Shown one piece after another: positions 65 to 46,592 of a stretch of DNA of 51,514 nt. The notes below the pieces were generated by a model. It did no database searches and was not told the DNA's origin. It worked only from the letters and a program-made list of their open reading frames with translations. Numbering within the stretch: the stretch's first letter is position 1; every line of letters starts with the position of its first letter. Source of the stretch: an uncultured Candidatus Saccharibacteria bacterium (GTDB taxonomy: Bacteria; Patescibacteriota; Minisyncoccia; Phycocordibacterales; UBA9973); the NCBI GenBank assembly GCA_964356285.1, contig CAYHGI010000002.1, forward strand, positions 1 to 51,514, written 5' to 3'. The translations under genes were made by a program, and so were the position numbers.

Positions 65-2248
65 ATGATTGAACTAAAAGATTACCAAAAACAAGCAGTA
101 GATAACCTTAGCAGGAAGGTAGAAAATTCCTTGCGTTCTTCGGAGAGCGAAATAGTAGTATTTCAAGCCCCTACTGGTTCAGGTAAAACAGTTATGGTCT
201 CTGCTCTTTTGAAAGAACTTATTAGCCGAAGAAAAGACGATAGAAAGTTTGCCTTTGTTTGGGTCTCGGTTCGTATGTTGCACAAGCAGAGCAAAGAAAA
301 ATTGGAGAGTTTTTATGAAGATGATAGGGCTATCAAATGTTCCTACTTTGATGATTTGGAAGACCGTAGAATTGGCGAAAACGAGGTTCTATTTATAAAT
401 TGGCACAGCATAAATAAAAAAGATATAAACCTTTTTGTTAAGGACAATGAGAAAGATAACAATTTAAGCAACATTATTAAAAATACGAAAGAAGAAGGGC
501 TCACTATAGTTTTAGTGATAGATGAAAGCCATCACACAGCAAACTCAGATAAGTCAAAAGAGCTTATTGAAATTATTAACCCGAAAATTACCTTAGAAGT
601 TTCTGCAACGCCTCACTTAACTGAGGGTGTGTCTGAAATAGAGAAAGTTCGTTTGGCAGATGTAAAAGCCGAAGAAATGATAAAGTCGGAAATTTTAGTA
701 AATCCTGAATTTCTAGATATTAAAATTGGTTCAAAAAGTGCTGATGAGATAGTGATAGAACAGGGCTTAAAAAAGAGAGAAGAACTATTGAAGATGTATA
801 AGAAAGAGGGTTCAAATGTAAACCCGCTTATGCTTATACAGCTTCCCGACAACAGAAGTAATTTGGTAAGTAAGAAGGAGGCAGTAGTAAAGATTTTAGA
901 GAAAAGAGGTATTACTGAAAAGAATGGCAAACTAGCTATATGGCTCTCGGAAGATAAATCGGACACCTTGCCCAACATTGAGAAGAACAACAATGAGGTT
1001 GAAGTCCTTGTCTTCAAGCAAGCCATCGCATTGGGCTGGGATTGCCCTAGAGCGTCCATATTGGCCATTTTCAGGGAGTCCAAGAGCTTTACCTTCACTA
1101 TTCAAACTATAGGCCGAATAATGCGTATGCCAGAGCTTAAATACTACCTAAAAGAACCTGACTTAAATCAGGGCTATGTCTTTACGAACTTACCAAACAT
1201 TGAAATTACCGAAGATTACGCTAAGGACTATTTAACTGTTTACGAAGCCAAACGAGACAATAAGTTATATAAAAACATTTCCTTGCCCTCAATTTATCTT
1301 AAACGCCAACGAGAAAGGACTCGTTTGTCAGGTGAGTTTGTTAAAACTTTCTTAACTCTAGCGGATAAGGAGAAAATAAAGAAATCAGTTAATCTTAAAC
1401 CCTCAAAAATAATAAATTCAATAATAGCCGAAGGTAAAATTGTAGATATAGATAAATCAGGTGAAATTGAACACAAGGGAGCAATAAAAATAACCCTAGA
1501 TGAAAAAGAGCTTCAAGAAAAGTTTGATACTTTCATTACTCAAAACTGCACTCCTTACGCACCTGCCGACTCAAGTGATAGATTGAAAACTGCAATTTAT
1601 CAATTTTTCAGTCAGGAATTTGATTTTGAAAAATATGACCCAGAGGTTCAAAAAATAGTTTTAGGAAAAGAAAATGCTCAGTTGTTTGTTAACACAATAA
1701 ATCTAGCTAAGGAAAAGTATAAAAAAGAAGTGGTTGAGAAACTAAGCGAGAAAAGAGAACTGCAAGATATGCCTAATTGGGAAGTGCCGATATTTACGAG
1801 TTATAACAGCAGGTATAAAAAAGAGGAACAAGCCCTTTCCATTATCAAGCCATTTTATACTGCAAAGCAGAGTGAGCCAGAAAAACAATTTATTGAGTTT
1901 CTAAATGCTTCTAAGAAAGTAAAATGGTGGTATAAAAATGGTGAAGCAGAAATAAAATTCTTTGCAATTTTAAGAGCTGATGACCGAGCTTTTTATCCTG
2001 ACTTTCTTATCCAATTCAAAGATGGAACTGTGGGTATTTTTGAGACAAAGAGTGGCTTTACGGCAGGTGAAGACGCTAAAGAACGAGCTGAGAGTTTGCA
2101 ACGATACATAAAGAAACAAAATAAATCTGGTAATAAACTAATTGGCGGTATAGCCGTCTATGTTAATGGAACTTGGAGATATAATGATAAAGAAAAATAC
2201 GATTATAATCCGAGTGATTTATCAAGCTGGAAAGTTCTTAGTTTATAA
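65..2248 (+). CDS. SF2 helicase-nuclease resembling a Type III restriction enzyme Res subunit
   Basis: 727-aa ORF. Helicase motif I 'APTGSGKT', motif II 'DESHH', motif VI-like 'QTIGRIMR'. C-terminal PD-(D/E)xK-like 'PDFLIQF..GIFETKSG'. A + strand frame ends with TAA at 16-18, so a truncated upstream partner gene is possible but cannot be assessed. Confidence 0.7.
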   Translation: MIELKDYQKQAVDNLSRKVENSLRSSESEIVVFQAPTGSGKTVMVSALLKELISRRKDDRKFAFVWVSVRMLHKQSKEKLESFYEDDRAIKCSYFDDLEDRRIGENEVLFINWHSINKKDINLFVKDNEKDNNLSNIIKNTKEEGLTIVLVIDESHHTANSDKSKELIEIINPKITLEVSATPHLTEGVSEIEKVRLADVKAEEMIKSEILVNPEFLDIKIGSKSADEIVIEQGLKKREELLKMYKKEGSNVNPLMLIQLPDNRSNLVSKKEAVVKILEKRGITEKNGKLAIWLSEDKSDTLPNIEKNNNEVEVLVFKQAIALGWDCPRASILAIFRESKSFTFTIQTIGRIMRMPELKYYLKEPDLNQGYVFTNLPNIEITEDYAKDYLTVYEAKRDNKLYKNISLPSIYLKRQRERTRLSGEFVKTFLTLADKEKIKKSVNLKPSKIINSIIAEGKIVDIDKSGEIEHKGAIKITLDEKELQEKFDTFITQNCTPYAPADSSDRLKTAIYQFFSQEFDFEKYDPEVQKIVLGKENAQLFVNTINLAKEKYKKEVVEKLSEKRELQDMPNWEVPIFTSYNSRYKKEEQALSIIKPFYTAKQSEPEKQFIEFLNASKKVKWWYKNGEAEIKFFAILRADDRAFYPDFLIQFKDGTVGIFETKSGFTAGEDAKERAESLQRYIKKQNKSGNKLIGGIAVYVNGTWRYNDKEKYDYNPSDLSSWKVLSL

Positions 2249-3184: not shown

Positions 3185-4870
3185 TTAATGAGAGAATACT
3201 TCAGTTCCTTTCATTTCTAAAGGTAGCCCGCTAAATTGCAGTTCGCTCTTAATTGCACGCCAATTCAGGGTTCTAAACGCATCCAATAGCGGGAGCATTC
3301 TTGGACTTTTGAGGTAGATTTCCTCAATTTGTCTTTTGTTTTTATACATTTTAAGAGGTTCTAACTTTTTATTTTCAGCAACTACGGCTTTTAATGGTAG
3401 TAGTGTGTTTTCTGTGTCAATTACTAGGTTTTTATTCATAATTGAGAGGTGCGAACCTAATCTTGATAATATGTCTTTTTTCTCAAATTCACCTTTTTCA
3501 AACTTGGCTTTAGCATCTCTAGCAAAAGCATAAACCTCGTCAGCTTTTTTCATAAAAGCATCAACATCCTTACCCGTCTTGTTAAAAATATTTTCCCAGT
3601 GTAATTTTTCTGTTGTTAATGGCTCTTTACGCATTTTAAATTCTTCCTCTGTTATTTCTTGATTGGCTCGCATATCAATTAACCCAGATAATTTTTTCAA
3701 ACATTCCCTATACGCCTTATTTTGTATATCAAGGATAGATTCGGTTGCTTGGGCTTGCTTGGCATTTTCTTGCATAGACCATTTCAAAGCAAAATCGTGC
3801 AACTCTGGCGGTATATTAAGAGAATCAATTTCTTTCATTATTTGCTTTTCTAGTTCTTTTTGCTCAACACCTTTTTGAGAGCAGTTTGGATTTTTGCGAT
3901 GCGTGCAATGATAATAAATATATCTATGAATGTTGCCATTTAATTGCCTCTTAACCTTTTCTTCTGCCGTGATGCCAGATTTGCACTCTCCGCACTCCAT
4001 AAGCCCCGTAAAAGCGAATGTGTGCGTCTTGGGGCGAGGTCTGCCTTTTCTTCCGAGTAATAATTGAATCTTGTCGTATTCTTCCGATTTCATTAAAGGT
4101 TTATATGTTCCCTTATACCAAATGCCACTTCCTCTCGGATATTCAAACATCCCATAATACATAGGGTTGGTAAAAAGATAATAAATTGTATTTCGGCTCA
4201 TCTTTTTTCCATTAGGCATTCTGAAGCCCCATTCTTTACTTACAATTTTCCAGATTTTTAGCGGAGTATAAAGTCCCGTAAGCATCATATCAACCATTTT
4301 ACGAATCAAATCAAATCTCTCTGGGTCTGGGTATATCTGTTTTCTGCCTCGTTCTTCATACTTATTATTTTTATAACCAACGGGAGCGGGGGCTGGATAC
4401 ATTCCTTTTTCCGCTTTCGTCTTTAACCCTCTTTTAACATCTTCACCCTTGTTGTCATTTTCTAGTTTCGCTTGGCTACAAAACAAGTTAAGCAAAAATT
4501 TATCATTGGGGATGTTGCGAAACATTTGGCTTGGGGTTCTAACTTCAAGTAATTTTCCCTCATCCATTAAATAAACCACCTTGCCTGTATCTATTGAATT
4601 TCTTGAAATTCGGCTTGCGTTCCAAACCAAAAGTCCGTTGGCAAAGCCACTATCAATTTTTTTAGTCAGTTCTGCAAATTTAGGTCTGCCGAGTTTTTTT
4701 GCTGAATGCGATTCTTCTATTATTTCAACTATTTTTAGTTTTTCTCTTTTGGCTACATCTTCAAGTTCCTTTCTCTGTGATTCAATAGATAAAACTTGCC
4801 TATCTTCTTGCTCGGAAGATTTACGGCAATAAATAATATATTTAGCTGGTTGTTTAGTTTTGTTTTCCAT
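3185..4870 (-). CDS. large serine recombinase (resolvase/invertase N-domain + recombinase domain + zinc ribbon)
   Basis: 561 aa. N-terminal 'YIIYCRKSSEQEDRQVLSIESQ' is the catalytic Ser motif. Cys cluster 'CGECKSG...YYHCTHRKNPNC'. Coiled-coil C-terminus. Confidence 0.85.
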   Translation of the reverse strand: MENKTKQPAKYIIYCRKSSEQEDRQVLSIESQRKELEDVAKREKLKIVEIIEESHSAKKLGRPKFAELTKKIDSGFANGLLVWNASRISRNSIDTGKVVYLMDEGKLLEVRTPSQMFRNIPNDKFLLNLFCSQAKLENDNKGEDVKRGLKTKAEKGMYPAPAPVGYKNNKYEERGRKQIYPDPERFDLIRKMVDMMLTGLYTPLKIWKIVSKEWGFRMPNGKKMSRNTIYYLFTNPMYYGMFEYPRGSGIWYKGTYKPLMKSEEYDKIQLLLGRKGRPRPKTHTFAFTGLMECGECKSGITAEEKVKRQLNGNIHRYIYYHCTHRKNPNCSQKGVEQKELEKQIMKEIDSLNIPPELHDFALKWSMQENAKQAQATESILDIQNKAYRECLKKLSGLIDMRANQEITEEEFKMRKEPLTTEKLHWENIFNKTGKDVDAFMKKADEVYAFARDAKAKFEKGEFEKKDILSRLGSHLSIMNKNLVIDTENTLLPLKAVVAENKKLEPLKMYKNKRQIEEIYLKSPRMLPLLDAFRTLNWRAIKSELQFSGLPLEMKGTEVFSH

Positions 4871-9175: not shown

Positions 9176-11017
9176 ATGAAATTACAATTACAATCGGTAG
9201 TTAAAACTACCACAAATAATTTTGATACTGAAAGCGAAAATCAGTCCATTTTTGAACGGAATATACAAAGAGGTGTTGAGGCGGGTATAGTATCTTTTAA
9301 CGAAGATAAATCAAGAATAACCTACGCTTGCTCACGAGCTTATACAACGGGTTTTAAGAACCCAGAGGAAAAAGTTAGAGCTTCGTATTTTTGTGAGCTT
9401 GTGCTTGATTATAATTACCCAAAAGAGAAGATGGATTTTGAGGTATTAGTCCCTCGCCGAACCCCAGAGGATAGGGCTGATATTGTTATTTATGAAGATG
9501 AAGAATTAAAAACCCCCTACTTGGTAGTTGAAACAAAAAAAGATGGTATAACCGATGCGGAGTTTAAGCAAGCCATTGAGCAGGCGTTTGGCAACGCTAA
9601 CAGCATACGAGCCAAGCTCGCCTCTGTTGTCGCAGGAACTACTAAAACAGCTTTTGATGTTGCAGGATTTAAACCTAGCGAACGAGCAAAAAATGTTATT
9701 TCAGATATTCCTAAAAAATACGGCAAAACTCCCAAATATAGATTTATAAAGGGCGAAGCAGACAAAGAGTTAAAAACAGTTTCAAGGGACGAACTTATAA
9801 GGGCTTTGGAAAAAGCCCACGATACCGTTTGGCAAGGTGGAAGATTTGACCCGACAGACGCCTTTGACGAAGTTTCAAAACTCTTATTTTGCAAATTGAA
9901 AGACGAAAAAAATACTACCAAAGGAGACCCGTATTCTTTCCAAATAGGCACTCACGAATTACCAGAGGAAGTTTATAAAAGAATAAACGGCATTTACCAG
10001 AAAGCAAAAAAGGAGGACGCCGAAGTTTTTAAGGATGATATAAAATTAGAGCCGAAAGTTGTTTATAATGTAGTTGAGCATTTACAAACACTGGCAATAA
10101 ACAAAATTGATTTAGATACTAAAGGGGTCGCCTTTGAGGTATTTATGACAGATTTTTTCAAAGGCAAAATGGGGCAATTTTTTACGCCTCGTCCTATCAT
10201 ACAATTTTGCGTTAAGATGATGAATCCAGAAAAAGGCGAGCTAGTATTAGACCCAGCTTGCGGGAGCGGAGGATTTTTACTCAACGCTTTGGATTTTGTT
10301 AGAGAATATGCGAGTAAAAATTATGACGAGCAGGAAGCCAGAGACCATTGGCACGGCTTTGCCAAAGATAATTTATATGGCATTGAAATAAATGACAAAA
10401 TCGCCAGAGTTTGCAAAATGAATATGATTATCCACGATGATGGACATACCAATGTTATTAGCACGGACGCATTGGAAAATTTTGAAGATATAGAAAAAAT
10501 ACATCCTAAATTTGAAAAAGACCATTTTGACTTAATCCTTACCAATCCGCCTTTTGGAGCAACCATAAAAAGAACTGAAAAAGATTACTTGGATAAATAC
10601 AAATTGGGAGAGGATAAACCAAATCAGAAAACAGAGATTTTGTTTATTGAGCGTTGTATTGGCTTTGTGAAGCCCAAAACGGGCAGGATAGCGATTGTTT
10701 TACCAGACGGCATACTAACTAACTCCTCTCTGCAAAATGTAAGAGATTTCATAATGGAGCGTTGCCAGATTTTGGGAGTTGTATCTCTGCCCCAATTTGC
10801 TTTTGCTCATTTTGGAGCTGGAGTAAAATCTTCTTTGGTATTTTTGAGGAGAAAGGGAGAAAACGAAAGCATAAAAGATTACCCGATATTTATGTCTATT
10901 GCCGAACATATAGGGTATGACGCAACAGGAAGAGCGGACGCTAAAAATGATTTGGACACGATTTTTGATGAGTATAATAATTTCTTAAAAAATCCTAAAA
11001 ATTATGCAGGCATCTGA
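9176..11017 (+). CDS. N6-adenine DNA methyltransferase with an N-terminal PD-(D/E)xK nuclease-like domain (HsdM-like, or RM subunit of a BcgI-like Type IIB system)
   Basis: 613 aa. SAM motif 'VLDPACGSGGFL' and catalytic 'LTNPPFG'. The N-terminal ~150 aa contain 'RADIVIY...YLVVETKK' (D...ExK). Confidence 0.85.
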   Translation: MKLQLQSVVKTTTNNFDTESENQSIFERNIQRGVEAGIVSFNEDKSRITYACSRAYTTGFKNPEEKVRASYFCELVLDYNYPKEKMDFEVLVPRRTPEDRADIVIYEDEELKTPYLVVETKKDGITDAEFKQAIEQAFGNANSIRAKLASVVAGTTKTAFDVAGFKPSERAKNVISDIPKKYGKTPKYRFIKGEADKELKTVSRDELIRALEKAHDTVWQGGRFDPTDAFDEVSKLLFCKLKDEKNTTKGDPYSFQIGTHELPEEVYKRINGIYQKAKKEDAEVFKDDIKLEPKVVYNVVEHLQTLAINKIDLDTKGVAFEVFMTDFFKGKMGQFFTPRPIIQFCVKMMNPEKGELVLDPACGSGGFLLNALDFVREYASKNYDEQEARDHWHGFAKDNLYGIEINDKIARVCKMNMIIHDDGHTNVISTDALENFEDIEKIHPKFEKDHFDLILTNPPFGATIKRTEKDYLDKYKLGEDKPNQKTEILFIERCIGFVKPKTGRIAIVLPDGILTNSSLQNVRDFIMERCQILGVVSLPQFAFAHFGAGVKSSLVFLRRKGENESIKDYPIFMSIAEHIGYDATGRADAKNDLDTIFDEYNNFLKNPKNYAGI

Positions 11018-12398
11018 TGTAAAAAATAAATGCTTTGTAGTTTGGAGCAATAAAGTTGAGGGTAGATTTGACCCTCATTTTTACAAACCAGATTTTTCAT
11101 TGTTAGAAAAAAAACTTAAAAAAATAAATCACTCAACTTTTGGTGATGTTATTAAGTTTTCAAACGAGATTTGGAACGGCAAGGATTTTTTTACAGAAAA
11201 ATTTCCCTACATAGAAATAAGCGAAATTGATATACATACTGGGGAGATAAAAGACATAATCTACTATGAAAAATCCGAAGCTCCCAGTCGTGCAAAAATG
11301 ATAGTAAGAAATAATGACATAATTGTTTCAACCACTAGACCCCATAGAGGAGCGATTGCTTTTATAGATAATTCAAAAGACGGCTTCATCGCCTCAACGG
11401 GTTTTGCCGTATTGAGAGATTTGAAAAATAAAGAAGTTGATAAAAATTATCTTTTTTATATTTTAAGAACTAGTTTCATATTAGACCAGATGTTGCAGAG
11501 AAGTAGCGGAGGCAATTATCCAGCAATAACAGCCGAAGAATTGAAGAAAATAATTATACCTCTTCCGCCGATAGAAACTCAAAATAAAATCGTTGAGATA
11601 ATGCAGTCGGCTTACGAGAAAAAAGCAAGCAAGGAACAGGAAGCAGAAAGTGTTTTTAATTCCATTGATGATTATATTTTAGGAGAATTAGGTATAAAAA
11701 TGCCACAGGCGAAAGATAAGGAATGTTTTAGTGTTAGTTCTCAAGAAATTGGTAGTGGTAGATTGGATTGTTATTATTACCAGCCAAAATTTAAGGAGGG
11801 AGAAAAATCTTTGAAAAAAGCGGATTGCAAGGTTGAACCCTTAAAAAATTACATTACAAAAATACATTATGGAGCGTCCCTTAAAAATATCTATGTTGAT
11901 GAGGGCATACCATTATTGAGAATACAAAACTTAAAACCAAACAGGATAGTTTTAGACGATGTGGTTATGGTTTCCGAAACGAGAAGAAAGGAATTAGGCA
12001 ACGCCTTTGTGAGTGAGGGCGACTTGCTTATTTCAAGAAGCGGAAGCGTTGGTATAGTTTCTGTTGTGCCAAAAGAAGCAGAGGGTTTTGCGTTTGGTTC
12101 TTTTATGATTAAGTTTTGTCTAAACGATAAAATAGATAAAGATTTTGTTTCTGTATGGCTTAATAATAAAATATCCCAGTTATTTATTAAACGAGAGAAA
12201 ATCGGGGCTATACAGGGCAATATAACGATTGAGACCATTGAGAACTTACAGATACCAACTCCACCATTAGCAACTCAAAAGAAATTGGCGGGAGAGGTTA
12301 AAGAACGATTAGCCCAAGTAAAAAAAATAAATGCAGAAGCCCAAGATGAAATTGAGAAGGCAAAATTTTTTGTTGAAAATTTAATAGTTAAAAAATAA
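11004..12398 (+). CDS. hsdS: restriction-modification specificity (S) subunit with two target-recognition domains
   Basis: 464 aa. Duplicated architecture with two conserved helical spacers: 'IPLPPIETQNKIVEIM' and 'IPTPPLATQKKLAGEV'. Overlaps the methyltransferase stop by 14 nt. Confidence 0.85.
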   Translation: MQASDVKNKCFVVWSNKVEGRFDPHFYKPDFSLLEKKLKKINHSTFGDVIKFSNEIWNGKDFFTEKFPYIEISEIDIHTGEIKDIIYYEKSEAPSRAKMIVRNNDIIVSTTRPHRGAIAFIDNSKDGFIASTGFAVLRDLKNKEVDKNYLFYILRTSFILDQMLQRSSGGNYPAITAEELKKIIIPLPPIETQNKIVEIMQSAYEKKASKEQEAESVFNSIDDYILGELGIKMPQAKDKECFSVSSQEIGSGRLDCYYYQPKFKEGEKSLKKADCKVEPLKNYITKIHYGASLKNIYVDEGIPLLRIQNLKPNRIVLDDVVMVSETRRKELGNAFVSEGDLLISRSGSVGIVSVVPKEAEGFAFGSFMIKFCLNDKIDKDFVSVWLNNKISQLFIKREKIGAIQGNITIETIENLQIPTPPLATQKKLAGEVKERLAQVKKINAEAQDEIEKAKFFVENLIVKK

Positions 12399-43507: not shown

Positions 43508-43539
43508 ATGTCAAAGATGCCCTTTGATAAACAAAGAAT

Positions 43540-43567
43540 CACTTTGCATAAAAGTGTTTTTTTGTTT
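43540..43567 (+). terminator. weak intrinsic terminator
   Basis: CACTTT-GCATA-AAAGTG followed by TTTTTTTGTTT. Overlaps the -35 of the leuS promoter. Confidence 0.35.
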
Positions 43568-43572
43568 ATTAT
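43544..43572 (+). promoter_or_regulatory. promoter TTGCAT-17-TATTAT, 8 nt before the leuS ATG
   Basis: -35 at 43544-43549, -10 at 43567-43572, ATG at 43581. Confidence 0.45.
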
Positions 43573-43580
43573 GTCAATAT

Positions 43581-46500
43581 ATGCGAGAATACGACCATAA
43601 AAAAATTGAGAAAAAATGGCAGAATGAATGGAAGAAAAAAGGAACTTATCACGCAAAAAATTTCTCCAAAAAATCGAAATTTTACAGTTTGATCGAGTTT
43701 CCGTATCCTTCCGGTGACGGATTGCATGTCGGGCATATTCGCAGCAACACAGCGATGGATATAATTTCACGAAAACGAAGAATGGAAGGTTTTAATGTCC
43801 TCTATCCGATCGGCTGGGATGCTTTTGGTCTGCCGACGGAAAATTACGCCATCAAGACGGGTATCCATCCGATAAAAGTGACCAAAGATAATACCGACAT
43901 TTTTAGACGCCAGCTCAAAGCGATGGGTTTTTCTTTTGATTGGTCGCGGGAGATAAACACAACTGATCCGAAGTATTATAAGTGGACCCAGTGGATATTT
44001 TTGCAGTTTTTGAAAAAAGGCTTAGCTTATAAGGCTAAAATGACAATAAATTGGTGTCCAAAAGACAAGATCGGTCTGGCTAATGAAGAAGTAATTGATG
44101 GGAAATGCGAAAGATGCGGTACGGCAGTGGAAAAAAGAGAGAAAGAGCAATGGATGTTAGCCATCACTAAATATGCCGACAGGCTGTACAAAGATCTCGA
44201 CGATGTAGACTATCTGCCGCAGATAAAACTCGGGCAAAGGAATTGGATAGGAAAGAGCGAAGGAGCTCTAATAAATTTTCAATTATCAATTTCTAATTTT
44301 CAAAAAAATAAAATAGTTTCCGCTAGGAAAGTCCTAGCGGAGTATGTGGAGGTATTTACTACCCGTCCGGATACGATTTTCGGGGTAACTTTTCTTGCTG
44401 TTGCTCCTCTCGTTGCTAAAAAATTAACGGGCAAAGATTTCGGCATAAAAGTAGATATTGATCGAGAAAATAAAGAAAAAGTGGGTATAGATACCGGACT
44501 AAAAGCAAAAAATCCGGCAAACGGGGAGATGGTGCCTGTATTTGTGGTTAATTATGTATCTGCAGAATATGGCACCGGCGCAATTATGGGTGTGCCAGCG
44601 CATGACGAGCGGGATTTTGAGTTTGCTAAGAAATATGGGCTAGAAATAAAAAATGTTATTGAACCGGTATTTACTGATGAACCAAAAGCCGGAATACCTT
44701 TTATAGACAGGAATGCGATACATGCAATTTTGAAGCATTGGTCGGAAGAAAAGTATTTAGTCCTGCTTTGGAAAAAAGTTGACTGGGTTACATTTGTAAC
44801 AGGTGGGGTAGAAAGAGGAGAAAATCCATTACAGGCTGCCATAAGAGAAATTAAGGAAGAAACAGGATATTTAAACCTGAAGTTAAAAAAAGAATTGCCT
44901 GCATCTCATAGTAAATTTTATCATATTCCCAAAAAAGAGAATCGATTTGCTCATTTTTCCAATTTTTATTTCGAATTAGAAAACGGGCAACAAGAAGAAT
45001 TATCAGAAGATGAAAAAAGCAATCATGAATTAAAATGGGTTTCTCCGGATGAACTTGAAAAAATTATGAAAATTAAAGGGGCACTTCGGGACTGGAAAGT
45101 TTTAAGGGGTAAAGAAGAGGTTTATATAGGTGAAGGACTTTTAACTAATTCAAGCCAATTCGACGGTATGGATTCGGAAAAAGCTAAAAAAGAAATCACA
45201 AAGTTTGTCGGCGGAAAGGAAAAAGTAACTTTCAAGCTCCGTGACTGGATATTTTCCAGGCAGAGATATTGGGGCGAGCCGATACCAGTCGTGTATTGTC
45301 TGAGCAAGGGTAGTCCTTGCTCAAATACATGGGTGCCGGTGCCGGAAAAAGATTTGCCGGTGGAATTGCCCAAAGTTAAAAATTACCAGCCGACGGAAAG
45401 TGGGGAATCGCCACTGGCTAATATCTCAAAGTGGGTCAATGTTAAATGTCCGAAATGCAAAGGGCCAGCTAAAAGGGAAACTGATACCATGCCGAATTGG
45501 GCTGGCTCTAGTTGGTATTATCTGCGTTACACTGATCCTAAAAATAGTAAGGAGTTTGCCAGCAAGAAAAATTTGAAGTACTGGCTGACCTCACCCCGTC
45601 CCTCTCCCAAGGAGAGGGCTCCTTCCCTTTTGGGGAAGGCGGAGGAAGAGATGGGTGGGGTCGACTGGTACAACGGAGGCAATGAGCACACCACCTTGCA
45701 TCTTTTATATTCTCGTTTCTGGCATAAATTTTTATATGATTTGAAATTAGTACCGACTTCAGAGCCATATATGAAGCGCACTTCGCATGGGATGATTTTG
45801 GGCGAAGGAGGAGTCAAAATGTCAAAATCGCTTGGCAATGTTATTAATCCAGACGATATTGTGAAAACATACGGCGCAGACACACTTCGTATTTATGAAA
45901 TGTTTATGGGGCCCTTTGACCAATCTGTCGCTTGGTCCACAGAAAGTATTATTGGGGCGAGGAGGTTTATTGAACGTGTCTGGAATCTACAATATAAAAT
46001 CTCACCCCAGCCCTCTCCTTTCAAGAGAGAGGGAAGCCCTTTCTCCTTTCAGGGGAAGGCGGGGGATGAGGTTGAGAGGTTGATGCACCAAACGATAAAA
46101 AAAGCAACAGAGGACATTGAGGCGATGAAATTCAACACAGCCATTTCGACACTTATGATTTTTGTGAATGAAGTTGGTAAGCTTGATTCTATCTCACGAG
46201 ATGTTTATAAAAAATTCCTCAAACTTCTCTCGCCCTTTGCGCCACATATCGCGGAAGAATTATGGCAAAATTTAACCTCACCCCGACCCTCTCCAAAAGA
46301 GAGGGGGAAATTCAAGGTCTTCCCCTTTGGGGGAGGAGCGGAGGAAGTGAGAAGCATTCATCTTTCCAATTGGCCGAAGTGGGACGAAAGCCTGATTCAA
46401 GATGAAGAAATAAAAATTGCGGTGCAGGTAAACGGCAAAGTAAGGACGGAAATAATTATCCAGACAGACGAGCAGGAAGAAATTGTCAAACAAAAAGCTT

Positions 46501-46592
46501 TAAGAAACAAGACTATTATTAAATATATCGGGAATAAAATTCCCCTAAAAGCGATTTACGTGAAAAATAGACTTATCAACATAGTTATTTAG
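43581..46592 (+). CDS. leuS: leucine--tRNA ligase carrying multiple in-frame insertions, including a Nudix domain
   Basis: 'HVGH', 'TTRPDT', 'GTGAIMGVPAHDERDFEFA', 'RDWIFSRQRYWGEPIP' and 'KMSKS'. Start set to the ATG at 43581. 1003 aa. Confidence 0.9.
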   Translation: MREYDHKKIEKKWQNEWKKKGTYHAKNFSKKSKFYSLIEFPYPSGDGLHVGHIRSNTAMDIISRKRRMEGFNVLYPIGWDAFGLPTENYAIKTGIHPIKVTKDNTDIFRRQLKAMGFSFDWSREINTTDPKYYKWTQWIFLQFLKKGLAYKAKMTINWCPKDKIGLANEEVIDGKCERCGTAVEKREKEQWMLAITKYADRLYKDLDDVDYLPQIKLGQRNWIGKSEGALINFQLSISNFQKNKIVSARKVLAEYVEVFTTRPDTIFGVTFLAVAPLVAKKLTGKDFGIKVDIDRENKEKVGIDTGLKAKNPANGEMVPVFVVNYVSAEYGTGAIMGVPAHDERDFEFAKKYGLEIKNVIEPVFTDEPKAGIPFIDRNAIHAILKHWSEEKYLVLLWKKVDWVTFVTGGVERGENPLQAAIREIKEETGYLNLKLKKELPASHSKFYHIPKKENRFAHFSNFYFELENGQQEELSEDEKSNHELKWVSPDELEKIMKIKGALRDWKVLRGKEEVYIGEGLLTNSSQFDGMDSEKAKKEITKFVGGKEKVTFKLRDWIFSRQRYWGEPIPVVYCLSKGSPCSNTWVPVPEKDLPVELPKVKNYQPTESGESPLANISKWVNVKCPKCKGPAKRETDTMPNWAGSSWYYLRYTDPKNSKEFASKKNLKYWLTSPRPSPKERAPSLLGKAEEEMGGVDWYNGGNEHTTLHLLYSRFWHKFLYDLKLVPTSEPYMKRTSHGMILGEGGVKMSKSLGNVINPDDIVKTYGADTLRIYEMFMGPFDQSVAWSTESIIGARRFIERVWNLQYKISPQPSPFKREGSPFSFQGKAGDEVERLMHQTIKKATEDIEAMKFNTAISTLMIFVNEVGKLDSISRDVYKKFLKLLSPFAPHIAEELWQNLTSPRPSPKERGKFKVFPFGGGAEEVRSIHLSNWPKWDESLIQDEEIKIAVQVNGKVRTEIIIQTDEQEEIVKQKALRNKTIIKYIGNKIPLKAIYVKNRLINIVI
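44320..44340. repeat. 21-nt 8-5-8 palindrome CCGCTAGG-AAAGT-CCTAGCGG in-frame in leuS
   Basis: Same architecture and similar core (AGG-N5-CCT) as the GAGCAAGG palindrome. It lies in an extra segment before 'TTRPDT'. Confidence 0.7.
45302..45322. repeat. 21-nt perfect palindrome GAGCAAGG-GTAGT-CCTTGCTC in-frame in leuS
   Basis: Encodes part of 'CLSKGSPCSN'. Deleting the 21 nt leaves the frame intact (..C L N T W..). Confidence 0.9.
45588..45659 (+). repeat. 72-nt GC-rich palindromic element, copy 1, in-frame in leuS
   Basis: TCACCCCGTCCCTCTCC-CAA-GGAGAGGG...CCTTCCC-TTTT-GGGGAAGG...GGAGGAAG. Encodes TSPRPSPKERAPSLLGKAEEEMGG. Confidence 0.8.
46002..46073 (+). repeat. 72-nt GC-rich palindromic element, copy 2, in-frame in leuS
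   Basis: TCACCCCAGCCCTCTCC...GAGAGGG...GGGGAAGGCGGGGGATGAGG. Encodes SPQPSPFKREGSPFSFQGKAGDEV. Confidence 0.8.
46275..46346 (+). repeat. 72-nt GC-rich palindromic element, copy 3, in-frame in leuS
   Basis: ACCTCACCCCGACCCTCTCC-AAAA-GAGAGGG...CTTCCCC-TTTG-GGGGAGG..GCGGAGGAA. Encodes TSPRPSPKERGKFKVFPFGGGAEE. Confidence 0.8.

What the first reader, a model, noticed from the sequence alone, without database searches (positions are those of the whole stretch)
44670..45120. Nudix hydrolase domain inserted in-frame inside leucyl-tRNA synthetase
About 150 extra residues sit between two conserved LeuRS blocks: '[32 protein letters not shown]' and 'GEGLLTNSSQFDGMDSEKAKKEI...RDWIFSRQRYWG'. As I recall E. 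coli LeuRS, these blocks are only ~20 aa apart. The insert contains a perfect Nudix box, GGVERGENPLQAAIREIKEETGY (nt 44802-44867), which fits G-x5-E-x7-R-E-U-x-E-E-x-G-U exactly. The LeuRS frame continues on both sides, so this is a domain insertion near the C-terminal part of the CP1/editing region, not a gene fusion at an end. I do not know of a Nudix-in-LeuRS architecture. As inference: aminoacyl-tRNA synthetases generate Ap4A-type dinucleotides, and Nudix enzymes hydrolyse such compounds. A built-in hydrolase for aaRS side products or a nucleotide-linked regulatory role is therefore conceivable.
Basis: partly seen in the sequence, partly recalled or inferred. Interest (0 to 1): 0.85.

Follow-up and report, generated by a model that had tools for sequence, protein, structure and literature searches.

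The report
Nudix hydrolase domain inside leucyl-tRNA synthetase
The leucyl-tRNA synthetase gene in this window really does carry a complete Nudix hydrolase domain spliced into its proofreading domain, but this is a common and so far unstudied feature of Parcubacteria (CPR) rather than a one-off, and its substrate is unknown.

Summary
The 1003-aa LeuRS (nt 43581-46592) has 149 residues (aa 363-511, nt 44667-45113) where T. thermophilus and Aquifex LeuRS have 7-9. The segment matches Pfam NUDIX (E 6.7e-16), has a canonical Nudix box, and models as a Nudix fold (pLDDT 96.6).

It is not an assembly artefact and not unique. The same insert at the same site occurs in 74 of the best 80 species-level genome hits. 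Nearly all of the 120 closest full-length LeuRS carry it, as do 107 of the 150 closest protein clusters. All come from the Parcubacteria group, and some are already in NCBI/UniRef.

The core catalytic glutamates of the Nudix box and the LeuRS synthetic and editing motifs are conserved, so both activities are probably live. Some relatives carry 2-3 Nudix copies at three different LeuRS sites. Others add Ser_hydrolase, DUF559, HAD or nucleotidyltransferase-like domains, reaching 1722 aa.

The closest characterised Nudix enzymes are ApnA hydrolases and RppH, but only weakly, so the substrate is unresolved. I found no paper describing the architecture. My verdict is a real, conserved and uncharacterised variant of known parts, of moderate interest.

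In passing: three copies of a palindromic mini-element are inserted in frame in the same gene.

The parts
43581..46592 (+). leuS gene, 1003 aa plus stop: bacterial-type leucyl-tRNA synthetase carrying the insert
   Evidence: TIGR00396 leuS_bact 892.8 bits, cut-off 548.4. E 1.9e-185 to T. thermophilus LeuRS 1h3n. ORF listed.
43725..43736 (+). HIGH motif (HVGH, aa 49-52) of the synthetic active site
   Evidence: H49, G51 and H52 are invariant in the alignment of 45 full-length homologues.
44241..44666 (+). N-terminal part of the CP1 editing domain (aa 221-362). It includes the threonine-rich TTRPDT (aa 260-265, nt 44358-44375) and HDERD (aa 341-345, nt 44601-44615) editing-site motifs.
   Evidence: PF13603 matches aa 220-364 at profile positions 1-144 of 185. 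T260, T261 and T265 are at least 90% conserved; H341, D342, R344 and D345 are invariant.
44667..45113 (+). Inserted Nudix hydrolase domain (aa 363-511)
   Evidence: PF00293 E 6.7e-16. It replaces a 7-9-residue loop of solved LeuRS structures. AlphaFold2 pLDDT 96.6, pTM 0.90. Foldseek probability 1.0 to many Nudix structures.
44802..44870 (+). Nudix box GGVERGENPLQAAIREIKEETGY (aa 408-430)
   Evidence: Fits Gx5Ex7REUxEExGU. G408, G409, E423, E427 and G429 are invariant and E426 is kept in 43 of 45 homologues. It is the only such match in the window.
45114..45260 (+). C-terminal part of CP1 and return to the catalytic core (aa 512-560, up to RDWIFSRQRYWG)
   Evidence: Aligns to Tth LeuRS 374-426. 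L553 to G565 is largely invariant.
45816..45830 (+). KMSKS motif (aa 746-750)
   Evidence: K746, S748, K749 and S750 are invariant.
46077..46484 (+). Anticodon-binding domain (aa 833-968)
   Evidence: PF08264 E 2.3e-23.
45588..45650 (+). Palindromic mini-element copy 1, in frame (side finding, not part of the Nudix insert)
   Evidence: Repeat families D1/D2. Absent from more than 70% of homologues. pLDDT below 50 at aa 657-692.
45999..46070 (+). Palindromic mini-element copy 2, in frame
   Evidence: pLDDT below 50 at aa 811-827.
46275..46347 (+). Palindromic mini-element copy 3, in frame
   Evidence: pLDDT below 50 at aa 907-921.

Best explanation
The gene encodes a working bacterial-type LeuRS. 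Its CP1 editing domain carries, in a surface loop about 17 residues after the editing-site aspartate, a complete and probably catalytically active single-domain Nudix pyrophosphohydrolase.

The insertion is old. It is inherited across many candidate phyla of the Parcubacteria group and kept by purifying selection. The protein is therefore a bifunctional enzyme, not an accident.

The most likely job of the Nudix module is to hydrolyse a nucleotide with a polyphosphate chain close to where LeuRS does adenylate chemistry. My first choice of substrate is dinucleoside polyphosphates (Ap4A/ApnA), made when enzyme-bound aminoacyl-adenylate reacts with ATP, or related Np4-type species.

Shown: the architecture, its fold, its conservation, its specificity to LeuRS, and its recurrence.
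Inferred: catalytic activity (about 0.75), functional coupling to LeuRS (about 0.6), and the ApnA-type substrate (about 0.35).
For: Architecture and integrity of LeuRS. HIGH, KMSKS and the editing motifs are conserved.

Fold: pLDDT is 96.6 for the domain alone. It stays at 89-95 within the full-length model.

Selection: core box residues G408, G409, E423, E427 and G429 are invariant and E426 is kept in 43 of 45 full-length homologues, although the insert as a whole is only 44% identical pairwise, against 80% for the catalytic core. The same box is conserved in 22 more distant LeuRS fragments at 37-52% identity, inserted at the same point.

Not a chimera: 73 of the best 80 species-level genome loci have both LeuRS flanks around the Nudix. 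One more is cut by a contig end. A syntenic 274-kb contig from another study has it too.

Specific to LeuRS and recurrent: of the 150 closest 50%-identity clusters, 107 are LeuRS-embedded, 39 are stand-alone and 4 are other proteins; none showed any other synthetase. Variants carry 2-3 Nudix copies at three different LeuRS sites.

Substrate lead: the best profile hit in the PDB is Lupinus Ap4A hydrolase (1.8e-7). It is followed by AvrM14, NUDT12, NudB, Dcp2 and Aquifex Ap4A hydrolase. Foldseek's top 50 includes many ApnA hydrolases (Aquifex, Thermus Ndx1, C. elegans, human, Chlamydia CT771, Rv2985, Plasmodium) and RppH. The best NCBIfam Nudix hits are RppH models. An aromatic pair (F446, Y447) lies 16-17 residues after the box, which fits the ApnA-hydrolase rule of Dunn et al. 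1999 as I remember it. That is a lead, not a test.
Against: No subfamily-level assignment is possible. The RppH and other NCBIfam equivalog models score 16-30 bits against cut-offs of about 95-475. PDB sequence hits are weak (E 1e-4 to 1e-7), and Foldseek E-values are nearly flat across Nudix enzymes of different specificity such as NudB, NudI and MutT1.

From general knowledge, LeuRS is not among the strongest Ap4A producers.

Stand-alone homologues at about 50% identity exist. One sits in a cluster of generic house-cleaning hydrolases, so the activity need not be linked to LeuRS.

A sizeable subgroup of the family has a non-canonical box (GQT...A[A/M]E..[E/Q]E). This occurs in 8-10 of the 45 close homologues and may mean altered or lost catalysis in those members.

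No coordinates were available, so I could not measure the distance from the Nudix site to the synthetic or editing sites. The full-length pTM is only 0.65.
Confidence: 0.45

Rival explanations
1. Passenger fusion. The Nudix domain is an ordinary house-cleaning enzyme that became lodged in a permissive loop of an essential, constitutively expressed protein in tiny CPR genomes. It works independently of LeuRS, and the fusion only provides expression.
For: Stand-alone homologues of about 160 aa at 49-53% identity exist. One lies among four Nudix genes plus Ham1, HAD, His_Phos, 2H and Ser_hydrolase genes. The same LeuRS hot spots also hold unrelated domains: DUF559/REase-like, Ser_hydrolase, HAD and nucleotidyltransferase-like. 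This window's LeuRS even tolerates three in-frame mini-elements, so the loops are simply permissive.
Against: The family is overwhelmingly tied to LeuRS and to no other large protein (107 of 150 clusters). It recurs at three sites and in 2-3 copies. It is retained across many candidate phyla.
Confidence: 0.25
2. RNA-directed function. The Nudix module acts on tRNA-Leu or another RNA held by LeuRS. One option is RppH/Dcp2-like removal of a 5' pyrophosphate or a nucleotide cap. Another is removal of a nucleotide-derived modification at the acceptor end. It would be part of an end-repair toolkit built around CP1.
For: RppH models are the best NCBIfam Nudix hits. RppH, Dcp2, AvrM14 and NUDT12, all RNA-decapping enzymes, are among the closest PDB matches. 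All insertion sites are in or next to CP1, which receives the tRNA 3' end according to established LeuRS structural biology. Co-inserted domains in relatives (HAD, nucleotidyltransferase-like, endonuclease-like, serine hydrolase) resemble nucleic-acid end-processing modules.
Against: No direct evidence exists. Scores to the RppH models are far below their cut-offs. Mature tRNA has a 5' monophosphate. The similarity to RNA-acting Nudix enzymes is no greater than to small-molecule ones.
Confidence: 0.15
3. Non-catalytic role. The Nudix fold serves as a structural, tRNA-binding or ligand-sensing (regulatory) module, perhaps compensating for the missing leucine-specific domain.
For: This LeuRS lacks the leucine-specific domain. 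A subgroup of the family has lost the box arginine and sometimes one glutamate. The insert evolves faster than the rest of the enzyme.
Against: In this protein the box is fully canonical. The metal-binding glutamates are invariant or nearly so across 45 close and 22 distant homologues.
Confidence: 0.1
4. Artefact. The insert results from an assembly chimera, or the gene is a pseudogene.
For: The GC content of the insert is somewhat lower (0.31-0.40) than that of the rest of the gene (0.38-0.46).
Against: The frame is open throughout. The same junctions are seen in 73 of the best 80 species-level genome loci from many studies. They are also seen in more than 100 full-length proteins. The closest, L002, is 83% identical across the insert.
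Confidence: 0.01

Closest known systems
Canonical bacterial LeuRS (T. thermophilus 1H3N/2BYT, E. coli 4AQ7, Aquifex alpha-beta LeuRS)
   Same: It has the same class Ia core, HIGH and KMSKS motifs, a CP1 editing domain with the threonine-rich and aspartate motifs, and the anticodon-binding and C-terminal domains. E is 1.9e-185 to 1h3n.
   Different: 149 residues sit where these enzymes have 7-9. The leucine-specific domain (Tth 579-637) is missing. There are three further lineage-specific loop insertions.
Single-domain Nudix (di)nucleoside-polyphosphate hydrolases and RppH (Lupinus and Aquifex Ap4A hydrolases, Thermus Ndx1, human NUDT2, E. coli RppH)
   Same: It shares the Nudix fold (TM about 0.65-0.73), a canonical box, the small size with no extra domain, an RNA(V/I)-type first strand and an aromatic pair after the box.
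   Different: Identity is only 15-24%. No equivalog model reaches its cut-off. The domain is embedded in another enzyme instead of standing alone. The substrate is untested.
Stand-alone homologues of the insert (P0001-P0003, about 160 aa)
   Same: They are 49-53% identical over the whole domain, including the N-terminal PFVERNA strand.
   Different: They are free-standing. Their box lacks the arginine (A/M-E instead of R-E) and has GQ for GE. One lies in a house-cleaning gene cluster, not near leuS.
Other synthetases with an added enzymatic domain, e.g. IleRS with a GNAT domain (NCBIfam NF040702)
   Same: A class Ia synthetase carries an extra small-molecule-modifying enzyme domain. The NF040702 model appears in the hit list.
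   Different: The added domain family is different, and I did not examine where the GNAT domain sits in IleRS. Here the domain is inserted inside CP1 and can be multiplied.

Membership tests
Bacterial-type leucyl-tRNA synthetase (TIGR00396) | Whole-protein score above the curated equivalog cut-off | tested here: met
   892.8 bits against 548.4
Bacterial-type leucyl-tRNA synthetase (TIGR00396) | HIGH and KMSKS class I signature motifs | tested here: met
   HVGH at aa 49-52 and KMSKS at aa 746-750. They are conserved in 45 homologues.
Bacterial-type leucyl-tRNA synthetase (TIGR00396) | CP1 editing domain with the threonine-rich motif and the conserved aspartate | tested here: met
   PF13603 E 1.7e-47. 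TTRPDT is at aa 260-265. D342 and D345 are invariant.
Bacterial-type leucyl-tRNA synthetase (TIGR00396) | Leucylation and editing activity | not testable with these tools
   Needs enzyme assays.
Nudix hydrolase superfamily (PF00293) | Domain score above the Pfam gathering threshold | tested here: met
   59 bits against 21.1, E 6.7e-16
Nudix hydrolase superfamily (PF00293) | Nudix box Gx5Ex7REUxEExGU | tested here: met
   GGVERGENPLQAAIREIKEETGY at aa 408-430. The core residues are conserved.
Nudix hydrolase superfamily (PF00293) | Alpha/beta/alpha Nudix fold | tested here: met
   Model pLDDT 96.6. 550 PDB matches at E <= 0.001; all 50 listed are Nudix structures, TMq 0.53-0.73.
Nudix hydrolase superfamily (PF00293) | Metal-dependent pyrophosphohydrolase activity | not testable with these tools
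   Needs assays.
RppH RNA pyrophosphohydrolase (NF001936 and relatives) | Score above the equivalog cut-off | tested here: not met
   30.1 bits against 118. The other RppH models score 16-26 bits against 116-259.
Ap4A/ApnA hydrolase subfamily | Specific sequence relationship to characterised ApnA hydrolases, stronger than to other Nudix enzymes | tested here: inconclusive
   It is the best PDB profile hit, but the match is weak (1f3y, 1.8e-7). It is not separated from NudB, NUDT12 or Dcp2.
Ap4A/ApnA hydrolase subfamily | Tyrosine 16-18 residues downstream of the box (Dunn et al. 1999, recalled from memory) | tested here: met
   Y447 lies 17 residues after Y430. F446 is at least 90% conserved. 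The rule is a recollection and is weak evidence.
CoA-type Nudix (NuCoA motif) | LLTxR[SA]x3Rx3Gx3FPGG upstream of the box (recalled from memory) | tested here: not met
   The upstream sequence is LVLLWKKVDWVTFVTGG. There is no match.

The most novel reading that the evidence does not exclude
Parcubacterial LeuRS may be a scaffold that has repeatedly recruited small hydrolases and nucleic-acid enzymes around its CP1 domain. These include Nudix (1-3 copies), RBBP9/YdeN-type serine hydrolase, HAD, nucleotidyltransferase-like and DUF559 endonuclease-like domains.

Together they would form a previously unrecognised quality-control or repair module. One possibility is that it acts on the acceptor end of tRNA-Leu, for example by removing toxin-installed nucleotide-derived modifications. 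Another is that it acts on leucyl-adenylate-mimicking antibiotics.

On this reading the Nudix in this window is the core, most widespread component of that module.
Probability: 0.1. Interest if true: 0.85.

Novelty: new variant of a known kind. Interest (0 to 1): 0.55.

Why it matters
Synthetases are among the most conserved enzymes. Large catalytic domains inserted inside their proofreading domain are, to my knowledge, uncommon in bacteria. Here one is retained across many candidate phyla of organisms with minimal genomes, which argues that it pays its way.

If the Nudix module removes ApnA-type by-products or processes RNA ends at the synthetase, that would be a new form of built-in housekeeping or quality control in translation. 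It would also give a direct experimental handle on alarmone or cap metabolism in uncultured CPR bacteria.

The wider pattern is LeuRS of up to 1722 aa carrying three Nudix, a serine hydrolase and a HAD domain. It is a natural experiment in which loops of CP1 tolerate whole-domain insertions, which is useful for protein engineering.

For genome annotation, these proteins are currently named inconsistently: 'NUDIX domain-containing protein', 'class I tRNA ligase family protein' or 'hypothetical'.

Tried and rejected
- Assembly chimera or pseudogene: rejected on orthologue evidence.
- Literature: seven full-text searches, two of them followed by reading the hit papers, gave no description of the architecture. 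The hits were coincidental co-mentions.
- Subfamily assignment by NCBIfam, by sequence and profile search of the PDB, and by fold search: none discriminates a substrate.
- Searching genomes with the insert alignment failed because it has no sufficiently conserved 7-10-column stretch. The single sequence worked.
- HAD neighbour of the stand-alone Nudix against the HAD insert of P0373: no similarity. In contrast, the Ser_hydrolase neighbour is homologous to the LeuRS-inserted one.
- CoA-type Nudix: rejected because the NuCoA motif is absent.
- Aminoacyl-adenylate hydrolysis by the Nudix (pre-transfer editing): considered and set aside. As far as I know, Nudix enzymes cleave NDP-X rather than acyl-phosphate anhydrides; that chemistry is attributed to HIT-family enzymes.
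- Rfam search of the leuS region for the mini-elements: nothing meaningful.
- The full-length AlphaFold2 model returns no coordinates, so inter-domain geometry could not be read.
Full report

Yes. The long + strand ORF 43524-46592 most likely starts at the ATG at 43581. It is a bacterial-type LeuRS: TIGR00396 scores 892.8 bits against a cut-off of 548.4, and E is 1.9e-185 to PDB 1h3n.

Pfam places a NUDIX domain (PF00293, E 6.7e-16, 59 bits, cut-off 21.1) at aa 394-507. It lies between two stretches of the LeuRS editing-domain model PF13603. Residue-level alignments to solved structures fix the boundaries. Window aa 362 pairs with Thermus 364 and aa 512 with Thermus 374. In Aquifex the gap runs from 167 to 175. 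So about 149 residues (aa 363-511, nt 44667-45113) replace a loop of 7-9 residues.

The Nudix box GGVERGENPLQAAIREIKEETGY is aa 408-430 (nt 44802-44870). It is the only such match in six frames of the window.

**2. Is it an artefact?**

No. GC content dips modestly in the insert, to 0.31-0.40 against 0.38-0.46 for the rest of the gene. The architecture, however, is reproduced in independent assemblies.
- A syntenic 274-kb ENA contig carries a frameshift-fragmented LeuRS whose fragment holds PF13603 plus PF00293. It has the same upstream methyltransferase and downstream MurJ.
- A scan of one genome per GTDB species found at least 341 stretches encoding relatives of the insert. I tested the best 80 loci for LeuRS flanks. 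In 73 the Nudix lies between both flanks on the same strand, 1 is cut by a contig end, and 6 are stand-alone genes.
- The nearest locus is Ca. Nomurabacteria RIFCSPHIGHO2_02_FULL_35_13, at 83% identity over the insert.

**3. How common is it?**

Very common, but within one clade.
- Nearly all of the 120 best full-length LeuRS relatives (46-69% identity) carry PF00293 in precomputed annotation. Several are in NCBI nr/UniRef under names such as 'Leucyl-tRNA synthetase [Ca. Nomurabacteria GW2011_GWA2_43_15]' or 'class I tRNA ligase family protein'.
- A search with the junction region found about 50 further LeuRS fragments with PF13603 plus PF00293.
- An exhaustive HMMER search of 1.84 billion cluster representatives with the insert alone found 622 clusters at E <= 0.001.
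- Of the best 150 clusters, 107 are embedded in LeuRS, 39 are stand-alone proteins of at most 260 aa, and 4 are other proteins. None showed any other synthetase.
- Named sources include Nomurabacteria, Paceibacterota, Moranbacteria, Kaiserbacteria, Uhrbacteria, Magasanikbacteria, Zambryskibacteria and Liptonbacteria. The two I checked, Nomurabacteria and Uhrbacteria, belong to the Parcubacteria group of Patescibacteria.
- It is not universal: some close Nomurabacteria LeuRS lack it (P0351, P0380).

**4. Is it under selection and likely active?**

In an alignment of 45 full-length homologues the insert is the fastest-evolving folded part. Mean pairwise identity is 0.44, against 0.80 for the catalytic core and 0.62 for the editing domain. 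The Nudix box core is nevertheless fixed:
- G408, G409, E423, E427 and G429 are invariant.
- E426 is kept in 43 of 45, R422 in 36 of 45, and E414 in 35 of 45, with Q in the rest.

The same holds in 22 more distant fragments (37-52% identity), all inserted at the identical point. Outside the box, R377, W397, K398, K451, N454, R455, E478, H482 and W486 are conserved. A basic set of this kind would suit a phosphate chain, but that is my inference.

The domain models as a Nudix fold with pLDDT 96.6 and pTM 0.90. It stays at 89-95 within the full-length model, whose mean pLDDT is 78.4 and pTM 0.65.

The LeuRS motifs are also conserved: HIGH, KMSKS, the TTRPDT threonine-rich motif and D342/D345 of the editing site. 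Both halves therefore look functional.

**5. What kind of Nudix is it?**

This is unresolved.
- NCBIfam gives only sub-threshold hits, the best to RppH models (30 bits against a cut-off of 118), then NudB, NudE and MutT.
- A profile of the insert family against PDB sequences puts Lupinus Ap4A hydrolase first (1.8e-7). Next come the decapping effector AvrM14, NUDT12, NudB, Dcp2 and Aquifex Ap4A hydrolase.
- Foldseek's top 50 is rich in ApnA hydrolases and RppH but also holds NudB, NudI and MutT1. The E-values are nearly flat, from 4e-8 to 2e-6.
- The first strand (ERNAI) resembles the YR(P/R)NVG strand of RppH and plant Ap4A hydrolases. An aromatic pair lies 16-17 residues after the box. Both rest on my recollection and are leads only.
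- The NuCoA motif is absent.

**6. The wider pattern**

Relatives show that CP1 and its borders are insertion hot spots.
- Some LeuRS carry two or three Nudix domains. Two sit between the first Rossmann half and CP1, one at this window's site, and in others one lies downstream of CP1. Most have intact boxes.
- Others carry a Ser_hydrolase (PF06821) at two different sites, seen in 9 of the 80 genome loci.
- Still others carry DUF559/REase-like, HAD or aminoglycoside-nucleotidyltransferase-like domains. One protein of 1722 aa has three Nudix domains, an alpha/beta hydrolase and a HAD domain.
- The stand-alone homologue P0003 lies in a cluster of house-cleaning hydrolases. It sits one gene away from a Ser_hydrolase that is 38% identical (E 2e-16) to the one inserted in LeuRS.

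This cuts both ways. It shows that the inserted domains come from a pool of small free-standing hydrolases, which favours the 'passenger' reading. It also shows that the same two families were recruited to LeuRS repeatedly, and to no other protein, which favours functional coupling.

**7. Mechanism**

I commit to the following. This is a bifunctional enzyme in which an active Nudix pyrophosphohydrolase sits on the surface of CP1. It most probably removes dinucleoside polyphosphates or related polyphosphate nucleotides produced by adenylate chemistry.

My confidence in each step is:
- the architecture: at least 0.95;
- catalysis: about 0.75;
- coupling to LeuRS: about 0.6;
- an ApnA-type substrate: about 0.35.

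The rivals are an independent passenger enzyme (0.25), an RNA or tRNA-end-directed activity (0.15), a non-catalytic module (0.1) and an artefact (0.01).

**8. Comparison with what is known, and novelty**

Both parts belong to well-known families, and the membership tests for LeuRS and for the Nudix superfamily are met. Membership in RppH is tested and not met. Membership in the ApnA subfamily is inconclusive.

The combination exists in public databases in hundreds of sequences. I found no paper that describes or tests it. I therefore rate it a new variant of a known kind. Interest is 0.55.

**9. Side finding**

The same gene holds three in-frame copies of a GC-rich, double-hairpin element of 63-73 nt (CTCACCCC-NN-CCCTCTCC-loop-GAGAGGG...).
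- They encode SPRPSPKER-type peptides that most homologues lack.
- Close relatives have, lack or differ in these insertions at the same sites.
- The three regions are predicted disordered.
- The 16-base core recurs, almost always followed by its complementary arm, in at least 120 metagenomic contigs. Most are high-GC and some hold several copies.
- There is no Rfam family and no literature match.

Noticed in passing
window 45588-45650, 45999-46070, 46275-46347 (+): Three copies of a GC-rich, double-hairpin mini-element of about 63-73 nt are inserted in frame in leuS. They encode SPRPSPKER.../SPQPSPFKRE... peptides. They are absent from most homologues, variable among close relatives at the same sites, and predicted disordered. 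The pattern resembles the in-frame palindromic elements of Rickettsia (RPEs). No further copy occurs elsewhere in the 51.5-kb window.
   Followed up: partly
It is almost always followed by the complementary GGAGAGGG arm. Most contigs are high-GC (median 0.63), and some hold 3-5 copies. This looks like a very widespread cross-phylum palindromic repeat. No Rfam family or paper was found.
   Followed up: partly
P0125, P0126, P0144, P0166, P0264, P0333, P0373, P0378 (LeuRS relatives): Parcubacterial LeuRS variants carry 2-3 Nudix domains at three sites. Others add Ser_hydrolase, DUF559/REase-like, HAD or aminoglycoside-nucleotidyltransferase-like insertions, reaching 1722 aa.
   Followed up: partly
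L082:1713-12375: The stand-alone homologue of the insert (P0003) lies in a cluster of small hydrolases: 4 Nudix, Ham1, GDPD, 2H, HAD, His_Phos and Ser_hydrolase. The Ser_hydrolase there is homologous (38% identity, E 2e-16) to the one inserted in LeuRS P0166.
   Followed up: partly
window 45801-45818 (aa 741-746 of LeuRS): This LeuRS lacks the leucine-specific domain. Window aa 741 aligns to Thermus 579 and aa 746 to Thermus 637.
   Followed up: no
Nudix box column, alignment A2; P0001-P0003, P0135, P0141, P0145, P0157 and others: A subgroup of the family, both stand-alone and LeuRS-embedded, has a non-canonical box, GGIEEGQT..A[A/M]E..[E/Q]ETGY. It has lost the arginine and sometimes one glutamate. 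Multi-Nudix LeuRS often combine one canonical and one variant copy.
   Followed up: partly
L001:5426-8263: The orthologous LeuRS-Nudix gene on a 274-kb ENA contig is split into four called genes. This probably reflects frameshift errors of a long-read assembly rather than a real split.
   Followed up: no
P0005 (935-nt contig): This fragment begins with the Nudix box region (75% identical to the window). It then continues into an unrelated segment of about 120 aa before a DSEKAKK motif like that of LeuRS. It could be another domain nested in the insert, or a frameshift or chimera.
   Followed up: no
window 43527-43569: A 19-nt inverted repeat (89% complementary, 5-nt loop) lies immediately upstream of the leuS start codon. 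It could be the terminator of the upstream DUF5671 gene or a regulatory hairpin.
   Followed up: no
window 65-2248, 3185-4870, 9176-12398: The left part of the window encodes a ResIII/DEAD helicase, a large serine recombinase and an N6-adenine methylase with an HsdR-N-type domain. This is a likely restriction-modification or mobile region.
   Followed up: no
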